DNA of 40,000 nt, from positions 21,777-61,776 of the forward strand of contig NZ_CAXBFW010000017.1 in the NCBI RefSeq assembly GCF_963975215.1, read 5' to 3'. Below, in pieces: positions 15,330 through 26,666 of this stretch. Origin of the DNA: an uncultured Gilvimarinus sp. Lineage in GTDB: Bacteria > Pseudomonadota > Gammaproteobacteria > Pseudomonadales > Cellvibrionaceae. Both the position numbers and the translations under genes were made by a program. Below the pieces are notes generated by a model. The model made no database searches and was not told where the DNA came from. It saw only the letters and a program-made list of their open reading frames with translations. Each line of letters starts with the position of its first letter. Positions within the stretch are counted from its first letter, which is position 1.

Positions 15330-15344
15330 AATAGCAATATAATA

Positions 15345-15444
15345 TTGGGGACACCCACAAACTTGACAATGCCACACCTCTAAACCAATGACAATATTGG
15401 GGACACCCACAAACTTGACATTGGGGACACCCACAAACTTGACA
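15345..15444 (+). repeat. Three direct copies of the 24-nt motif TTGGGGACACCCACAAACTTGACA
   Basis: Copies lie at 15345-15368, 15397-15420 and 15421-15444. A second 20-nt motif, ATGCCACACCTCTAAACCAA, follows copies 1 and 3 (15369-15388, 15445-15464). Confidence 0.9.
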
Positions 15445-15509
15445 ATGCCACACCTCTAAACCAAAGTAAATTCAAGGAGCTCACTGCACCGCACGTTCAA
15501 GGAGGAACC

Positions 15510-16529
15510 ATGACTCAACCCCGTAAGCGCCTTATCTCTCTTGACGACACCCCTTTTTATCACTGCGTTGCCCGCTGTGTTCGACGCGCATTTTTATGTG
15601 GCTCTGGCAAGGACTATGACTTCGAGCATCGCCGGGGCTGGATCGTCCGTCGACTTAAACAACTGGCGGCGGTCTTTACCATCGACGTGGCCGCCTATGC
15701 GGTCATGTCCAATCACTATCATTTGGTCTTGCGTGTTCACCGGGAGCAGGCCGAAGCCTTAACTCGGGATGAAGTGATTGAACGCTGGTGCCAACTCTTT
15801 AAAGGGCCTCCATTGGTGCAGCGGTTCCGAGCGGGCGAGACGTTATCGCCGCCGGAACTGGAAGTCATAGATGGCATTGTCGATGATTGGCGCCAGCGCC
15901 TAGCGGATATCAGTTGGTTCATGAGGTGCCTCAATGAACCCATTGCCCGCTGGGCCAACCGTGAGGACAACTGCACCGGGCGATTCTTTGAAGGACGCTT
16001 TAAAAGCCAGGCGTTGTTGGATGAGCGAGCCGTATTAAGCTGTATGGCCTATGTGGACTTAAACCCCATCCGGGCCAGTATGGCCGATACCCCCGAGAAC
16101 TCGGACTTTACCAGCATTCAGGAGCGTCTGGGTATCGAGCCCACCACCCTCGTCGAATCACCTGCCGAAACGGATCGAGAAAAACCCTTGGCTCTGGCCG
16201 AGCTGATGCCATTTGCTGGCCGTGAGCATCAAGACCGCCAACCCAACCACCTGCCCTTTGATCTAAGCGACTACCTGGAGCTGGTAGACTGGACGGGACG
16301 CGCCATTCGCAACGACAAGCGCGGGGCCATAAACGAAAACCTGCCGAAAATTCTGGATCGGCTTGGCCTTCCTACAAAAGACTGGCTGGACACATGCTGC
16401 CATATCGAGCAGCGTTTTGGCCGAGCCATCGGCCCGGTCGCTAAAGTCAGTGAATTGTGCGAAGCACTGAATCTACACTGGATACACGGCATCAGACACT
16501 GCCGAAGCTTCTACTCGCAAACCGGCTGA
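15510..16529 (+). CDS. HUH-type Y1 transposase (Y1_Tnp/RAYT-like, 339 aa)
   Basis: HUH motif in SNHYHLVLRV and a tyrosine motif in MAYVDLNPIRASMA. AGGAGG lies upstream of the ATG. Confidence 0.75.
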   Translation: MTQPRKRLISLDDTPFYHCVARCVRRAFLCGSGKDYDFEHRRGWIVRRLKQLAAVFTIDVAAYAVMSNHYHLVLRVHREQAEALTRDEVIERWCQLFKGPPLVQRFRAGETLSPPELEVIDGIVDDWRQRLADISWFMRCLNEPIARWANREDNCTGRFFEGRFKSQALLDERAVLSCMAYVDLNPIRASMADTPENSDFTSIQERLGIEPTTLVESPAETDREKPLALAELMPFAGREHQDRQPNHLPFDLSDYLELVDWTGRAIRNDKRGAINENLPKILDRLGLPTKDWLDTCCHIEQRFGRAIGPVAKVSELCEALNLHWIHGIRHCRSFYSQTG

Positions 16530-18326: not shown

Positions 18327-18400
18327 ACGCCGCAAGCAAAGGCGCGCGTTAGCGCGTCCAGTGGAGCGAAGCGGAACGATTTTGCCTTGCCTTGTTATGG
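18327..18400 (-). repeat. attC site (R' end interrupted by the intron)
   Basis: Identical to 24088-24161, except that the terminal CTA of CTAACGCC is replaced by the intron 5' end. Confidence 0.85.
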
Positions 18401-18402
18401 CT

Positions 18403-18792
18403 TTACACATGACGCCCTTCATGATCCCAAAGAATAAAGGTTTGATTTTCTGTGGATGACATTGATTTTATGAGTCGCTCATTATTAAAAGTTGGAATAT
18501 CCTGAAGGCGCTGCAGTAATTCACCGGCTCCAGTGGCCTCACTGGGATAAGTTATAACGCCGTCTTTAGTTGCCAAATGCCACCACACATCTTCAACAAA
18601 TGGACCTTCATCAGTTGTTTCGACTGCAACGCCAATAAGTCCATTCCACGCAATAGACTGAGGCTCCTTTTCTGGCCAATGCACCCACGCATTATTTTCG
18701 TCAAACCACACCTTTACAGAGGCATATGGGCTTTTTGCATCTTGCTGTTCGTTTTTTTTATTACTGAAGAGCGAAGATATCCATTTAAACAT
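18403..18792 (-). CDS. Cassette ORF: hypothetical protein (copy A of the duplicated cassette)
   Basis: The preferred start is MFKWISSLF (ATG at 18792, AAGGAA 7 nt upstream). An in-frame ATG within the attC box lies at 18813. The protein is identical to 24164-24553. Confidence 0.6.
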   Translation of the reverse strand: MFKWISSLFSNKKNEQQDAKSPYASVKVWFDENNAWVHWPEKEPQSIAWNGLIGVAVETTDEGPFVEDVWWHLATKDGVITYPSEATGAGELLQRLQDIPTFNNERLIKSMSSTENQTFILWDHEGRHV

Positions 18793-18811
18793 CCGGAGTT
18801 TCCTTGTAGCC

Positions 18812-18929
18812 ATAACGCCCAGCGCAGGCGCAGCCAACGCGGAGTGCCTTTTGTGTTAATGTTTGAGCGACAGCGAGTAACGCAAAAGACGCGTAGTGTT
18901 GGCTGTCGCTCTGCCGCTGCTTGTTATGT
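18812..18929 (-). repeat. attC site
   Basis: The + strand reads ATAACGCCCAGCGCAGGCGCAGCCAACGCGG ... GTGTTGGCTGTCGCTCTGCCGCTGCTTGTTATGT. The arms pair well. Confidence 0.8.
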
Positions 18930-23118: not shown

Positions 23119-23196
23119 TAACGCCGCAATAAAAGGCGAGCGTTAGCGAGTCCAGCCCACGTTTTTTGTGGGCGATTTTTCATTGCCTTGTTATGC
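23118..23196 (-). repeat. attC site
   Basis: The + strand reads ATAACGCCGCAATAAAAGGCGAGCGTTAGCGAGTCCAGCCC ... GATTTTTCATTGCCTTGTTATGC, with the conserved centre. Confidence 0.85.
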
Positions 23197-23745
23197 GCTG
23201 TACGTGCCATTTTTAACTTTCCTAGTATCGGACATCCACCACTCACACATATCCCAAAAGTCCAATTTAGTAGCCTCATTGCCCATACTCTTGCGGATTT
23301 CTATTAGGAAGTTACCTAATAGCTCCATCATATCTTTGAGAAAGTCTAGTTCACCTGATTTTTGAGCCTCTTCCATGTTGTAGAGGTACTGCATTAGGTT
23401 GTTGTAAGCTTTAACGACAGAATCATTTGCCATTAACGCAAGTTTAAAGCCGTGACGCCTATACTCAAGGGTCAACATGGCGCTGGTTGCAACATCGCCT
23501 TTATCCTTGCCTTTATTCTTCTTGTCAGATTCCCAGGCAGCATCTGACATTAGTAAGATTATGAAAGGCTCTAGTATTTTGTTGTAAATCTCAATCCGAT
23601 CGTCTCGTAGCTTATTTTCGAGATCTATTTTTCTCTCGATGCTATTTTTTGCTTTCCAGCCAATAGATGAGATTATTAGGACAATTATAGGCGTTGCAAT
23701 ACTTCCAATTGCAGTAACAAAATCTAACCAATGTTTTTCTTCCAT
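23191..23745 (-). CDS. Cassette ORF: hypothetical membrane-anchored protein (1 N-terminal TM plus a helical domain)
   Basis: ATG at 23745 (the ORF track uses TTG at 23751). TM segment FVTAIGSIATPIIVLIISSIGW, then a charged, helical-looking region of about 150 aa. Confidence 0.6.
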   Translation of the reverse strand: MEEKHWLDFVTAIGSIATPIIVLIISSIGWKAKNSIERKIDLENKLRDDRIEIYNKILEPFIILLMSDAAWESDKKNKGKDKGDVATSAMLTLEYRRHGFKLALMANDSVVKAYNNLMQYLYNMEEAQKSGELDFLKDMMELLGNFLIEIRKSMGNEATKLDFWDMCEWWMSDTRKVKNGTYSA

Positions 23746-23766
23746 GCTCAATTCTCAATTTATCGC

Positions 23767-24084: not shown

Positions 24085-24161
24085 CTAACGCCGCAAGCAA
24101 AGGCGCGCGTTAGCGCGTCCAGTGGAGCGAAGCGGAACGATTTTGCCTTGCCTTGTTATGG
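24085..24161 (-). repeat. attC site
   Basis: The + strand reads CTAACGCCGCAAGCAAAGGCGCGCGTTAGCGCGTCCAGTGGAGCGAAGCGGAACGATTTTGCCTTGCCTTGTTATGG. Confidence 0.9.
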
Positions 24162-24163
24162 CT

Positions 24164-24553
24164 TTACACATGACGCCCTTCATGATCCCAAAGAATAAAG
24201 GTTTGATTTTCTGTGGATGACATTGATTTTATGAGTCGCTCATTATTAAAAGTTGGAATATCCTGAAGGCGCTGCAGTAATTCACCGGCTCCAGTGGCCT
24301 CACTGGGATAAGTTATAACGCCGTCTTTAGTTGCCAAATGCCACCACACATCTTCAACAAATGGACCTTCATCAGTTGTTTCGACTGCAACGCCAATAAG
24401 TCCATTCCACGCAATAGACTGAGGCTCCTTTTCTGGCCAATGCACCCACGCATTATTTTCGTCAAACCACACCTTTACAGAGGCATATGGGCTTTTTGCA
24501 TCTTGCTGTTCGTTTTTTTTATTACTGAAGAGCGAAGATATCCATTTAAACAT
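24164..24553 (-). CDS. Cassette ORF: hypothetical protein (copy B of the duplicated cassette)
   Basis: The protein is identical to 18403-18792, with the same RBS context. Confidence 0.6.
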   Translation of the reverse strand: MFKWISSLFSNKKNEQQDAKSPYASVKVWFDENNAWVHWPEKEPQSIAWNGLIGVAVETTDEGPFVEDVWWHLATKDGVITYPSEATGAGELLQRLQDIPTFNNERLIKSMSSTENQTFILWDHEGRHV

Positions 24554-24572
24554 TCGGAGTTTCCTTGTAGCC

Positions 24573-24669
24573 ATAACGCCGGTATATGCGGCGGCTGAAA
24601 TGTAGGGAGGAACGACCGAAATGGAAGCCGTCCGAGCCGCGCAGCGGCGCCATAATACCTTTGTTAGGC
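24573..24669 (-). repeat. attC site
   Basis: The + strand reads ATAACGCCGGTATATGCGGCGGCTG ... CAGCGGCGCCATAATACCTTTGTTAGGC. The arms pair well. Confidence 0.85.
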
Positions 24670-25278
24670 CTTGGCTAAGTTAAGTTTAGTACGAGCAGCA
24701 CGAACAAAAGATATGTGAGCTTCCACTACTGAATCTGCTGCTTCGTTGATGATCTTTGCCTCCTCTTCGAAGCGCTGCATATGCTCAGAGTCGCTTCTAT
24801 GCCCATTTACGATCACAGCCTGCAGCCCCGCCAGATTTGGACTTGTGTATTTAGCCACGGCCATACCGAACTCGACAGCGCTTTCTAGTAAGCTTTTTCT
24901 ATAGGACTCGAGATCGCTGTCAAGAAACTCATGCTCTGGGTTATCCCATTCGTAGAGAAACTGATTGATGGGGCGTATCTCTTCGCTTCTAAAGCTACCT
25001 AGAAAGTCATGTTCTTTCAGAAACTTTATGATGCCGTTGGAGGGAAGAGCATCCAGCAGCTTCTTCGCCAACGCAACGTCGTTAGGGTGCCCTTGCTTAG
25101 CGAGATTTCCGCTAATGCTCGACGAATCGTGGACGTCTGCGGCAATGAAGCCCGCTAGAGTAAGCGTAAAAGCCACCACAGGCTCCCACTCGAATGTCCA
25201 GTCCGCAGGATTCCACAGGAACCACGCAACGTTGAACAGCATGCCAGCAATTGTCAAGTACTTAGCCAATTTGGCCAT
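24664..25278 (-). CDS. First cassette ORF: hypothetical protein with 2 N-terminal TM helices and a ~150-aa soluble domain
   Basis: 204 aa. TM segments YLTIAGMLFNVAWFLW and VVAFTLTLAGFIAADV. The ATG at 25278 lies 19 nt downstream of the attI core. Confidence 0.6.
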   Translation of the reverse strand: MAKLAKYLTIAGMLFNVAWFLWNPADWTFEWEPVVAFTLTLAGFIAADVHDSSSISGNLAKQGHPNDVALAKKLLDALPSNGIIKFLKEHDFLGSFRSEEIRPINQFLYEWDNPEHEFLDSDLESYRKSLLESAVEFGMAVAKYTSPNLAGLQAVIVNGHRSDSEHMQRFEEEAKIINEAADSVVEAHISFVRAARTKLNLAKA

Positions 25279-25296
25279 TTAGTCAGAAGCTCCCTA

Positions 25297-25303
25297 GCCT
25301 AAC
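25297..25303 (-). other. attI recombination core (GTTAGGC on the minus strand)
   Basis: A perfect GTTRRRY box at the intI-proximal junction of the first cassette. I could not define the full extent of attI or the integrase-binding repeats. Confidence 0.55.
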
Positions 25304-25584
25304 AGCTAATTCATGCGACTCAGTCGCACTTTCGCCTGTCACCCTATCCCCAGTAGAAACTGGATGAAGTTGGAGATGGAAGCTGTTGAAAGCACAGGGG
25401 AAATAGACATATTCTGACAGCTCCTTGTCTGGGGAAAGTGCGACTGACTTTAATTGAAAGCCTAATGTAATGTCTTTTTCTGTACTGCGCAAGCGCCGCT
25501 CAACCCATTGAATTAATTAAGAAAATATTATTTGCACTCAACTTATCTTCTCACATTGTTCAAGGGTTTCCCCTGAACACGGAT

Positions 25585-25646: not shown

Positions 25647-26666
25647 ATGGAGAGACCCTCGGATATCCCAGTGTATGTACCTGAAAAATCGGCCAGATTT
25701 ATGGATCAGCTACGTGCATTTATGCGATTTAGGCAGCTCTCTTACCGCACCGAGCAAACTTATGTTCACTGGATTTTAAAATTTATACGCTTTCACAATA
25801 AGGCCCATCCATCGACCCTTGATGAAAAAGCGGTAGAAGTTTGGCTTACCCATTTAGCCACCGAACGAAACAACGCGGTGGCAACCCAGAAAATTGCACT
25901 TAATGCGATAGTGTTTCTTTATCGTCAATTTTTACGTCAGCCACTTGAGAATATGAATTTTAAGCGAGCTAAGCAGTCGCAGCGAGTCCCTACCGTGCTT
26001 TCACATACGGAGGCTAAGACGATTATTGATTTAGCCACTAACCCTTATCGGCTTATGTTTGCACTGATGTATGGCGCTGGGTTGCGACAAGCAGAGTGTT
26101 TGTCATTGCGCATACTGGATATAGATATTGAAAACCTTATGTTAGTAGTTCGCCATGGCAAGGGGCGTAAAGACCGAACAACCCTGTTACCTAAAGCGCT
26201 GCTAATTGATATCCAGCAGCAAATAGAACACGTCAGCGCTATTCATGCGATGGACTTGCAACGGGGCTTTGGCGAGGTTTATTTACCCGACTCACTCGCC
26301 AGAAAGTATCCCCGCGCAGCGTTTCAAACTAAGTGGCAATATTTATTTCCATCCAGTAGGCCAGGGCCTTGTCCACGCACGGGCGTTATTCGTCGACACC
26401 ATTTGCACCACAGCGCGGTACGAAAGCATTTAACCACCTGTGTTAATAGCTCCTCGATTGCTAAACATATATCTTGCCACACCTTCCGACACTCATTTGC
26501 CACAAGGCTTTTAGAGCAGGGCTATGATCTTAGAACCATACAGCAGTTGTTGGGTCATACGGATGTAAAGACTACTGAAATTTATACGCATGTCGTGAAG
26601 CAAGGAAAGCTAGGCGTGATAAGCCCTTTTGACGGTGTTCGGGAAGAATATGCTCGCTACGCCTAA
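25647..26666 (+). CDS. intI: Integron integrase IntI (tyrosine recombinase)
   Basis: 339 aa. Contains the integron-specific patch ...YLPDSLARKYPRAAFQTKWQYLFPSS... between patches II and III, and the catalytic contexts GLRQAE, HTFRHSFAT and LGHTDVKTTEIYTHV. Confidence 0.95.
   Translation: MERPSDIPVYVPEKSARFMDQLRAFMRFRQLSYRTEQTYVHWILKFIRFHNKAHPSTLDEKAVEVWLTHLATERNNAVATQKIALNAIVFLYRQFLRQPLENMNFKRAKQSQRVPTVLSHTEAKTIIDLATNPYRLMFALMYGAGLRQAECLSLRILDIDIENLMLVVRHGKGRKDRTTLLPKALLIDIQQQIEHVSAIHAMDLQRGFGEVYLPDSLARKYPRAAFQTKWQYLFPSSRPGPCPRTGVIRRHHLHHSAVRKHLTTCVNSSSIAKHISCHTFRHSFATRLLEQGYDLRTIQQLLGHTDVKTTEIYTHVVKQGKLGVISPFDGVREEYARYA

What the first reader, a model, noticed from the sequence alone, without database searches (positions are those of the whole stretch)
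24664..25278. First (attI-proximal) cassette encodes an orphan 2-TM protein with a ~150-aa cytoplasmic domain
Position 1 is the most recently acquired and best expressed slot in an integron. Its ORF has two N-terminal TM helices and a soluble domain (…DVALAKKLLDALPSNGIIKFLKEHDFLGSFRSEEIRPINQFLYEWDNPEHEFLDSDLE…) that reminds me loosely of Abi-like accessory domains, though I cannot name a family. No SD precedes its ATG. Instead, an upstream reading frame crossing attI stops 4 nt before it; that frame is covered in the separate finding at 25283-25492. Recency, membrane anchoring and the lack of any annotation make it a prime candidate for a new defence or stress function.
Basis: inference. Interest (0 to 1): 0.65.

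Follow-up and report, generated by a model that had tools for sequence, protein, structure and literature searches.

The report
Integron cassette: membrane hairpin plus unnamed sensor-like domain
The first cassette of this marine bacterium's integron encodes a small membrane protein that is not an orphan: its unnamed helical domain is fused in other bacteria to classic anti-phage killing domains, which makes it a good, still untested, candidate for a new single-gene phage-defence family carried by integrons.

Summary
The ORF is real (24664-25278, minus strand, 204 aa). It is the cassette that abuts attI of a complete integron in a Gilvimarinus-like genome. It encodes two short N-terminal hydrophobic helices and a ~140-aa all-helical C-terminal domain (AF2 pLDDT 92).

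It is not an orphan. A profile search found 1,681 cluster representatives, 840 of them at E<=1e-10.

The C-domain matches nothing in Pfam, NCBIfam, PHROGs, PADLOC or PDB, by sequence or by fold.

Most relatives carry the same or another membrane N-terminus. A minority replace it with TIR (CAP12/Pycsar type, TIR_2), Cap5-like HNH, SMEK nuclease, Schlafen AlbA_2, CHAT protease or DUF4062.

The architecture is therefore a swappable effector plus a constant sensor-like domain, as in known abortive-infection proteins.

Thirteen of 16 related loci are flanked by attC-like sites. The gene is rare: 1 of 11 congeners, 2 of 399 genomes of the class.

Best reading (about 0.55): a single-gene, Abi-type defence protein with a membrane-damaging effector. 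No experiment supports this yet.

The "no SD" claim is weak, because AGGGAG lies 11 nt upstream of the ATG.

In passing: the ~285-nt attI region is a multi-copy module that heads integrase-less cassette arrays elsewhere in the genome.

The scan holds no note of this protein family on other DNA.

The parts
25647..26666 (+). Integron integrase intI (339 aa)
   Evidence: TIGR02249 integron integrase, E 1.1e-119, 399.5 bits against a cut-off of 265. Also Phage_integrase and Phage_int_SAM_4.
25297..25582 (-). attI region: a ~285-nt module ending at the crossover GTT|AGGC (25303-25297). It is a multi-copy element in this genome and in congeners.
   Evidence: Ten matches in the own genome. Homology among copies ends exactly at ...AGCTGTTA. 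No Rfam match.
25290..25295 (-). SD-like AGGGAG, 11 nt upstream of the ATG and inside the cassette
   Evidence: Read from the sequence. The same motif, AGGGAG-N10-ATG, is present in the Cellvibrio homologue cassette L001.
24577..25302 (-). Cassette 1 (726 bp), from TTAGGC after the attI crossover to the G of the attC R' box
   Evidence: Core sites read from the sequence.
24664..25278 (-). ORF of 204 aa (P0001): membrane hairpin plus C-terminal helical domain
   Evidence: Conserved family.
25132..25260 (-). N-terminal module, residues 7-49: two short hydrophobic helices joined by a Trp-rich loop (AWFLWNP..W.FEWEP). W19, W31, E32 and P33 are conserved across the family.
   Evidence: An HMM of the module finds it in the homologues.
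24679..25101 (-). C-terminal all-helical domain, residues 60-200. Conserved residues: D67, L70, P79, F86, (H)DFxGSF 90-96, F107, W111, EHEF 115-118, E124, T145, N178, A181, H188, R193.
   Evidence: Domain-only AF2 model with pLDDT 91.8 and pTM 0.87. Column conservation over 148 representatives. No family or structure match.
24571..24669 (-). attC of cassette 1 (99 nt): R'' GCCTAAC, R' GTTATGG
   Evidence: Imperfect palindrome read from the sequence. It has the same architecture as the attC sites further down the array.

Best explanation
The cassette encodes a single-protein, abortive-infection-type defence candidate built from two modules.

The constant module is the cytoplasmic ~140-aa helical C-domain. 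It acts as the regulatory or sensing part. It would recognise a trigger (a phage protein or small molecule) or switch oligomeric state.

The variable module is the N-terminus, which is the effector. In this protein it is a hairpin of two short hydrophobic helices. On activation it would assemble and damage the inner membrane, stopping the infected cell. This is how 2TM effectors of CBASS, Pycsar and RexB-like systems work.

Shown:
- The modular architecture.
- The effector swaps in relatives.
- The cassette context and the patchy distribution.

Inferred:
- That the C-domain senses.
- That the hairpin permeabilises the membrane.
- That the trigger is phage-derived.

The cassette sits in slot 1 next to attI, so it should be the best-transcribed cassette. 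It has its own SD-like motif.
For: 1. Among 148 diverse representatives, the C-domain is joined to CAP12/Pycsar-type TIR (2), TIR_2 (1), Schlafen AlbA_2 (2), SMEK_N (1), CHAT (1) and DUF4062 (1). It is also joined to Cap5/SAVED-HNH-like endonuclease domains (3). PADLOC matches cover only those N-terminal parts, never the C-domain.
The N-terminus is therefore the exchangeable part.
3. 13 of 16 non-self loci show attC-like sites beside the gene: Cellvibrio, Marinobacter, Desulfoluna, V. parahaemolyticus, a congener and metagenomes. Integron cassettes are experimentally enriched in small single-gene defence systems, several of them TM proteins (10.1101/2024.07.02.601686; 10.1101/2024.07.02.601719; 10.64898/2026.03.17.712381).
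4. The distribution is rare and patchy: a single copy in the own genome, 1 of 11 congeners, and 2 of 399 other genomes of the class.
5. Each locus holds one copy and no conserved partner gene, which fits an autonomous protein.
6. The N-terminus carries K3 and K6 and the loop between the helices is short. This places the C-domain in the cytoplasm (inference).
Against: - There is no phenotype for any family member.
- No PADLOC model matches the C-domain, apart from a weak PDC-M67A hit at E 0.018.
- The enzymatic fusions are a small minority, about 7% of the representatives inspected.
- The conserved positions are mostly hydrophobic core residues, so no ligand or catalytic site can be named.
- The hydrophobic helices are only 15-17 residues long and their AF2 confidence is low, pLDDT 56-64.
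- Expression is untested.
- No members were found in phage genomes or viral contigs, which is neutral evidence.
Confidence: 0.55

Rival explanations
1. Orphan effector of a nucleotide-signalling system. The C-domain would be a new second-messenger receptor, functionally like SAVED, CARF, cNMP-binding or STING domains. The signal would come from a synthase encoded elsewhere, or from the phage.
For: The N-terminal repertoire (2TM, CAP12/Pycsar TIR, Cap5-like HNH, CHAT) is the same set found on CBASS, Pycsar and type III CRISPR effectors. One polar residue, D67, is nearly invariant (146 of 147), and E117, E124, T145, N178, H188 and R193 are conserved.
Against: No cyclase sits beside the gene in any of the 16 loci, and cassettes hold one gene. 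No SMODS cyclase is found in the own genome. The fold is an all-helical bundle unlike known nucleotide sensors, with no Foldseek hit better than E 0.17.
Confidence: 0.15
2. Membrane-resident exclusion protein. It would block phage DNA entry or another envelope step directly, without killing the cell. The C-domain would be a scaffold.
For: Most family members are membrane-anchored. A TM integron-cassette system (Deva/BrcWGS21) is reported to interfere with genome injection (10.1101/2024.07.02.601719).
Against: This does not explain why the same C-domain is attached to cytoplasmic TIR, HNH, SMEK, Schlafen and CHAT domains.
Confidence: 0.1
3. Not a defence gene. It would be a membrane-tethered protein with some other accessory role (stress signalling, inter-bacterial conflict or immunity, or addiction), or no selectable role in this host.
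For: There is no experimental evidence and no match to any curated defence model. One non-integron relative lies in a prophage- or MGE-like region next to HU and HTH/ImmA genes. TIR, HNH and CHAT domains also occur in inter-bacterial toxins.
Against: There is no signal peptide, secretion-associated domain or adjacent immunity gene. The gene stands alone in each cassette. The effector set is the one typical of intracellular suicide effectors.
Confidence: 0.2

Closest known systems
2TM effectors of signalling defence systems (Pycsar PycTM, CBASS Cap15/Cap14, TM-STING)
   Same: Small protein with N-terminal TM helices joined to a cytoplasmic regulatory domain. Sister proteins carry TIR or HNH in place of the TM part. 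The TIR and HNH modules of the relatives match PADLOC CBASS and PycTIR effector models.
   Different: The regulatory domain is an unrelated all-helical bundle with no match to cNMP-binding, SAVED or STING models. There is no cyclase gene beside it and no SMODS in the genome.
Single-polypeptide toxin-plus-sensor defence proteins (CapRel-type fused toxin-antitoxin; AbiJ/Abi_C proteins with variable N-termini)
   Same: One gene, with a constant domain and an exchangeable partner domain. The likely logic is auto-inhibition released by a phage trigger.
   Different: In AbiJ the constant C-terminus is a HEPN effector, and in CapRel the toxin is the constant N-terminus. Here the constant domain has no HEPN Rx4-6H motif and no Abi_C match, and the variable N-terminus is the effector. 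I recalled this resemblance from general knowledge and did not test it by alignment.
Validated integron-cassette defence proteins with TM segments and no known domain (Brigantia of the V. cholerae SCI; Deva/BrcWGS21; LDILCD_22380)
   Same: Single-gene cassette, TM segment(s), no recognisable domain, integron context (10.1101/2024.07.02.601686; 10.1101/2024.07.02.601719; 10.64898/2026.03.17.712381).
   Different: A family member does exist in a V. parahaemolyticus cassette array (WP_025634814.1).
PADLOC candidate PDC-M67A
   Same: The only defence-library model touching the C-domain: residues 98-194 against model positions 167-259 of 329.
   Different: E 0.018 and 12 bits, with no member of the 148-sequence set matching at E<=0.01 among the top families. 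Probably chance.

Membership tests
Integron gene cassette | Lies in an array next to intI and attI, in the cassette orientation | tested here: met
   intI matches TIGR02249 at 1e-119. The ORF diverges from intI and directly follows the GTT|AGGC crossover.
Integron gene cassette | Bounded by G|TTRRRY-type core sites, with a 3' attC imperfect palindrome (R''-L''...L'-R') | tested here: met
   99-nt site at 24669-24571, GCCTAAC...GTTATGG, with complementary arms. It has the same build as the other attC sites of the array. No covariance model was run.
Integron gene cassette | The same gene occurs as a cassette in unrelated arrays (mobility) | tested here: met
   13 of 16 related loci show attC-like YTAAC...GTTR sites next to the gene, read by eye rather than with a model.
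CBASS/Pycsar/Thoeris signal-activated effectors | A recognised nucleotide-sensor domain (SAVED, cNMP-binding, STING, SLOG, Macro) | tested here: not met
   No Pfam, NCBIfam or PADLOC hit on the C-domain in P0001 or in 148 relatives. The helical fold has no PDB neighbour.
CBASS/Pycsar/Thoeris signal-activated effectors | An adjacent signal synthase (CD-NTase, Pycsar cyclase or ThsB) | tested here: not met
   Single-gene cassettes with no conserved neighbour. No SMODS in the own genome. Pycsar-type cyclases and ThsB were not searched in the genome.
SLATT / other named 2TM effector domains | Match to the Pfam SLATT models | tested here: not met
   No Pfam hit on the N-terminus at E<=1, or in 148 relatives at E<=0.01.
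Abi families (Abi_C/AbiJ HEPN, Abi_2, AbiTii and others) | Match to the family model; for HEPN, the Rx4-6H motif | tested here: not met
   No Abi model is hit. No conserved Rx4-6H is seen; the conserved H188 precedes R193.
Experimentally validated integron-cassette defence systems (Darracq, Kieffer, Getz, 2026 screen) | Sequence homology to one of the validated proteins | not testable with these tools
   The sequences and DefenseFinder models are not held. The papers' text and the one held supplement give no sequence. Getz et al. 2025 is not in the library.

The most novel reading that the evidence does not exclude
The ~140-aa helical domain is a previously unnamed sensor module. It defines a large (at least 1,681 clusters) family of single-gene defence proteins with interchangeable effectors: several membrane hairpins, TIR, Cap5-like HNH, SMEK, Schlafen, CHAT and DUF4062. 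The family is spread mainly as integron cassettes, and the domain detects a phage cue by a mechanism unrelated to known nucleotide or STAND sensors.
Probability: 0.4. Interest if true: 0.75.

Novelty: new variant of a known kind. Interest (0 to 1): 0.6.

Why it matters
If the prediction holds, one small cassette gives access to a new sensing domain that bacteria have wired to at least seven kinds of killing module. Finding what that domain recognises would add a new input type to the list of phage sensors. It would also explain a recurrent gene of unknown function in chromosomal integrons. The system is only 615 bp and autonomous, so it is easy to test. If the prediction fails, the family still shows that much integron 'dark matter' consists of widespread, well-folded families rather than orphans.

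Tried and rejected
**Searches for a known family or fold**
- Pfam, NCBIfam, PHROGs and PADLOC scans of P0001 gave nothing usable.
- Profile searches against PDB sequences with A2 and A3 gave only chance hits.
- Foldseek of the full model against PDB and BFVD, and of the domain-only model against PDB, gave best E values of 0.12-0.19 on generic helical bundles (Borrelia Vsp/OspC, KinB sensor, vinculin/FAT). I rejected these as homology.
- hhalign against the neighbouring TM-plus-helical cassette protein (23194-23751) showed no relation, probability 0.4%.

**Searches for more relatives**
- The word-indexed search with the 148-sequence profile added little.
- tblastn against phages gave no hit and IMG/VR gave none. 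Plasmids gave one hit, really a V. parahaemolyticus cassette array.
- Scans of genome contigs and metagenome contigs returned only 3 and 4 loci.

**Other attempts**
- My first three scripted attC finders failed because the R' boxes are GTTATGG or GTTAGCA rather than strict GTTRRRY. I then read the sites directly.
- An exact look-up of the IntI protein found nothing on record.
- Literature searches for the fusion set or for accession WP_025634814 found nothing.
- I considered and rejected the idea that the attI module is an ORF-less cassette or a group II intron remnant. Its intI-side boundary has no GTT core and Rfam finds nothing.

Full report
**Observation**

The window carries a complete integron.
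- intI lies at 25647-26666 (+). It matches the integron-integrase model TIGR02249 at E 1e-119, plus the Pfam Phage_integrase and SAM_4 domains.
- Minus-strand ORFs run away from it, separated by repeated imperfect palindromes.
- The finding's ORF (24664-25278, 204 aa, P0001) is the first of them.
- The crossover GTT|AGGC lies at 25303-25297.
- The ATG at 25278 follows an in-frame TAA.
- The stop codon is part of the attC R'' box GCCTAAC.
- The R' box GTTATGG (24577-24571) holds the start codon of cassette 2. The cassette is 726 bp long.
- AcnA next door clusters at 90% or more with Gilvimarinus agarilyticus AcnA, so the host is a Gilvimarinus-like marine gammaproteobacterium.

**The protein**

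- Residues 7-22 and 33-49 are short hydrophobic helices, with mean Kyte-Doolittle values of 1.65 and 1.99 over 15 residues.
- A Trp-rich loop joins them (NPADWTFEWE).
- AF2 models them as helices, but with low confidence, pLDDT about 60.
- Residues ~60-200 form a five-helix bundle with a small beta-hairpin. Modelled alone, this domain reaches pLDDT 91.8 and pTM 0.87.
- The N-terminal lysines K3 and K6 and the short loop imply an N-in/C-in hairpin with a cytoplasmic C-domain. This is an inference.

**Not an orphan**

- The word-indexed search found 13 homologues of 46-82% identity, including a hypothetical protein of Cellvibrio sp. PSBB023.
- A full HMMER profile search of 1.84 billion cluster representatives found 1,681 proteins at E<=1e-3, 840 at E<=1e-10 and 39 at E<=1e-30.
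- Over 148 diverse representatives, the best-conserved positions of the C-domain are D67 (146 of 147), L70, P79, F86, the (H)DFxGSF motif at 90-96, F107, W111, EHEF at 115-118, E124, T145, N178, A181, H188 and R193.
- In the hairpin, W19, W31, E32 and P33 are conserved.
- This is a real, selected protein family.

**No known family or fold**

- P0001 has no hit in Pfam (E<=1), NCBIfam or PHROGs. It has only a 12-bit hit to the PADLOC candidate PDC-M67A.
- None of the 148 relatives matches any Pfam or PADLOC model through the C-domain.
- Profiles A2 and A3 find nothing in PDB sequences.
- Foldseek finds nothing better than E 0.12 in PDB or BFVD, with either the full or the domain-only model. TM-scores are 0.42 or lower in PDB, and BFVD's top hit reaches 0.53 over a 426-aa target.
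- The nearest shapes are generic helical bundles.

**The key result: domain architecture**

- In the relatives, the C-domain (profile positions ~60-200) is constant while the N-terminus varies.
- By inspection of the N-termini, the membrane modules fall into several unrelated sequence types. These include the W...WEP hairpin of this protein and an FPxFxNKxTW type, which is also the type found in the congener G007.
- Pfam identifies the non-hydrophobic N-termini as follows:
  - CAP12/Pycsar-effector TIR: P0087 (E 2e-29) and one more
  - TIR_2: P0150
  - Schlafen AlbA_2: P0120 and one more
  - SMEK nuclease: P0129 (E 8e-36)
  - CHAT protease: P0132
  - DUF4062: P0123
- PADLOC identifies three as CBASS Cap5/SAVED-HNH-type endonuclease domains: P0032, P0114 and P0147, at up to E 2e-29.
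- In every case the PADLOC match covers only the N-terminal part.
- This is the standard grammar of prokaryotic immune effectors. A constant regulatory or sensor module is coupled to interchangeable killing modules, one of which is a small TM hairpin.

**Genomic context**

- I examined 16 loci other than the window's own.
- Thirteen have attC-like YTAAC...GTTR palindromes directly beside the gene. They are:
  - Cellvibrio PSBB023, fifth gene after an intI
  - a metagenomic array ending at thrS-infC-rpmI-rplT
  - an array with HNH, HNH_2 and DEAD-helicase genes
  - the congener G007
  - Desulfoluna
  - Marinobacter caseinilyticus
  - a V. parahaemolyticus cassette array with GNAT and DUF3265 genes
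  - G254
  - several metagenomes
- Three loci are not obviously cassettes. One of them lies in an MGE-like region with HU, HTH/ImmA-like, thymidine kinase and an integrase.
- An HMM of the C-domain finds exactly one copy per locus and none in neighbouring genes. No partner gene is conserved.
- The gene is single-copy in its own genome.
- It is found in 1 of 11 congeners searched, as a distant variant in another array.
- It is found in 2 of 399 other genomes sampled from the class, one of them frameshifted.
- It was not found in phage genomes or IMG/VR.
- Recent work shows that integron cassettes are rich in small, mostly single-gene defence systems, several of them TM proteins without recognisable domains (10.1101/2024.07.02.601686; 10.1101/2024.07.02.601719; 10.64898/2026.03.17.712381).

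**Mechanism**

The best-supported model is an autonomous Abi-type protein. The cytoplasmic C-domain holds the N-terminal effector inactive until a cue changes its state. In this protein, hairpins would then assemble and compromise the membrane.

- The architecture and context are shown.
- Sensing, oligomerisation and membrane damage are inferred by analogy with PycTM, Cap15 and RexB-type effectors. That analogy rests on established knowledge of those systems.
- A signalling-receptor variant is less likely. No cyclase is adjacent anywhere and the genome lacks SMODS.
- A purely exclusion-type role does not explain the cytoplasmic enzyme fusions.
- A non-defence role cannot be excluded without experiments.

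1. 'Orphan' is wrong, as shown above.
2. 'No SD' is doubtful. AGGGAG at 25295-25290 lies 11 nt before the ATG and inside the cassette. The Cellvibrio cassette has AGGGAG-N10-ATG, and other homologues have GGAG or GAGG at 5-7 nt. The upstream frame does stop 4 nt before the ATG, so coupling is possible but not needed.
3. No Abi model matches.

**Limits**

- The sequences of validated integron defence proteins (for example Brigantia, Deva and LDILCD_22380) and the current DefenseFinder models were not available. This family might already be among them. Getz et al. 2025 was not in the library.
- Only the top 150 of the 1,681 hits could be inspected.

**Side finding**

- The ~285 nt between the crossover and ~25582 are not unique. 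The same module occurs about 10 times in this genome, 6 times in G002 and 10 times in G008.
- It includes the region of the 69-aa 'ORF crossing attI'.
- Homology among copies stops exactly at ...AGCTGTTA. After that, each copy continues with a different cassette-like start and an ORF within 10-35 nt.
- In all five copies examined, the downstream genes are separated by attC-like sites.
- In the two copies whose upstream flank I listed, the neighbours are housekeeping genes (an 892-aa acyl-CoA synthetase-like gene; kdsA and eno), with no intI.
- The genome has one intact intI and a second, 49%-identical one with an in-frame TGA.
- These look like integrase-less attI-like heads of separate cassette arrays. 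No Rfam family matches.

Noticed in passing
window 25297-25582; G000 C14:59032-59261, C30:29210-29391, C23:9650-9862, C26:43477-43755, C33:23886-24173 and others: The ~285-nt attI region is a multi-copy module: about 10 copies in this genome, 6 in G002 and 10 in G008. Homology ends exactly at the GTTA crossover. In five copies examined it is followed by different cassette-like ORFs separated by attC-like sites. The two copies whose upstream flank was listed lie next to housekeeping genes with no intI. They look like integrase-less attI heads of separate cassette arrays. The 69-aa 'ORF crossing attI' lies inside this repeat, and a conserved AAGGAG-N10-ATG sits in it in another frame.
   Followed up: partly
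window 24088-24387 and 18327-18626: Cassette 2 (ORF 24164-24574, 136 aa) is duplicated further down the array as ORF 18403-18837. A stretch of at least 300 nt, including part of its attC, is 100% identical, which points to a recent cassette duplication.
   Followed up: no
G000 C8:48288-49265 (L048): A second integron-integrase-like gene, 49% identical to intI, carries one in-frame TGA. It has the Phage_integrase and SAM_4 domains.
   Followed up: partly
window 15344-16529: A 339-aa plus-strand ORF (15510-16529) sits inside the array. It is unrelated to IntI and has no Pfam hit. It contains an NHYHLVL motif reminiscent of HUH/Y1 transposases. Tandem 52-nt repeats precede it at 15344-15471.
   Followed up: no
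window 24571-24669: The stop codon of cassette 1 lies inside the attC R'' box (GCC-TAA-C). The start codon of cassette 2 lies inside the R' box (GTT-ATG-G). This is tight packing of coding and recombination signals.
   Followed up: yes
L004 4243-6653 (metagenome SRR24139711): A family member sits between an HNH (236 aa) and an HNH_2-like (317 aa) gene and near a DEAD helicase and a resolvase. An attC-like site precedes it and an attC-like start follows it, so this is possibly a defence-rich array.
   Followed up: partly
G250 C2:5111-5684 (L014/L016): The family member in this genome is split by a frameshift or stop and shows no obvious attC beside it. It is probably a decaying copy.
   Followed up: no
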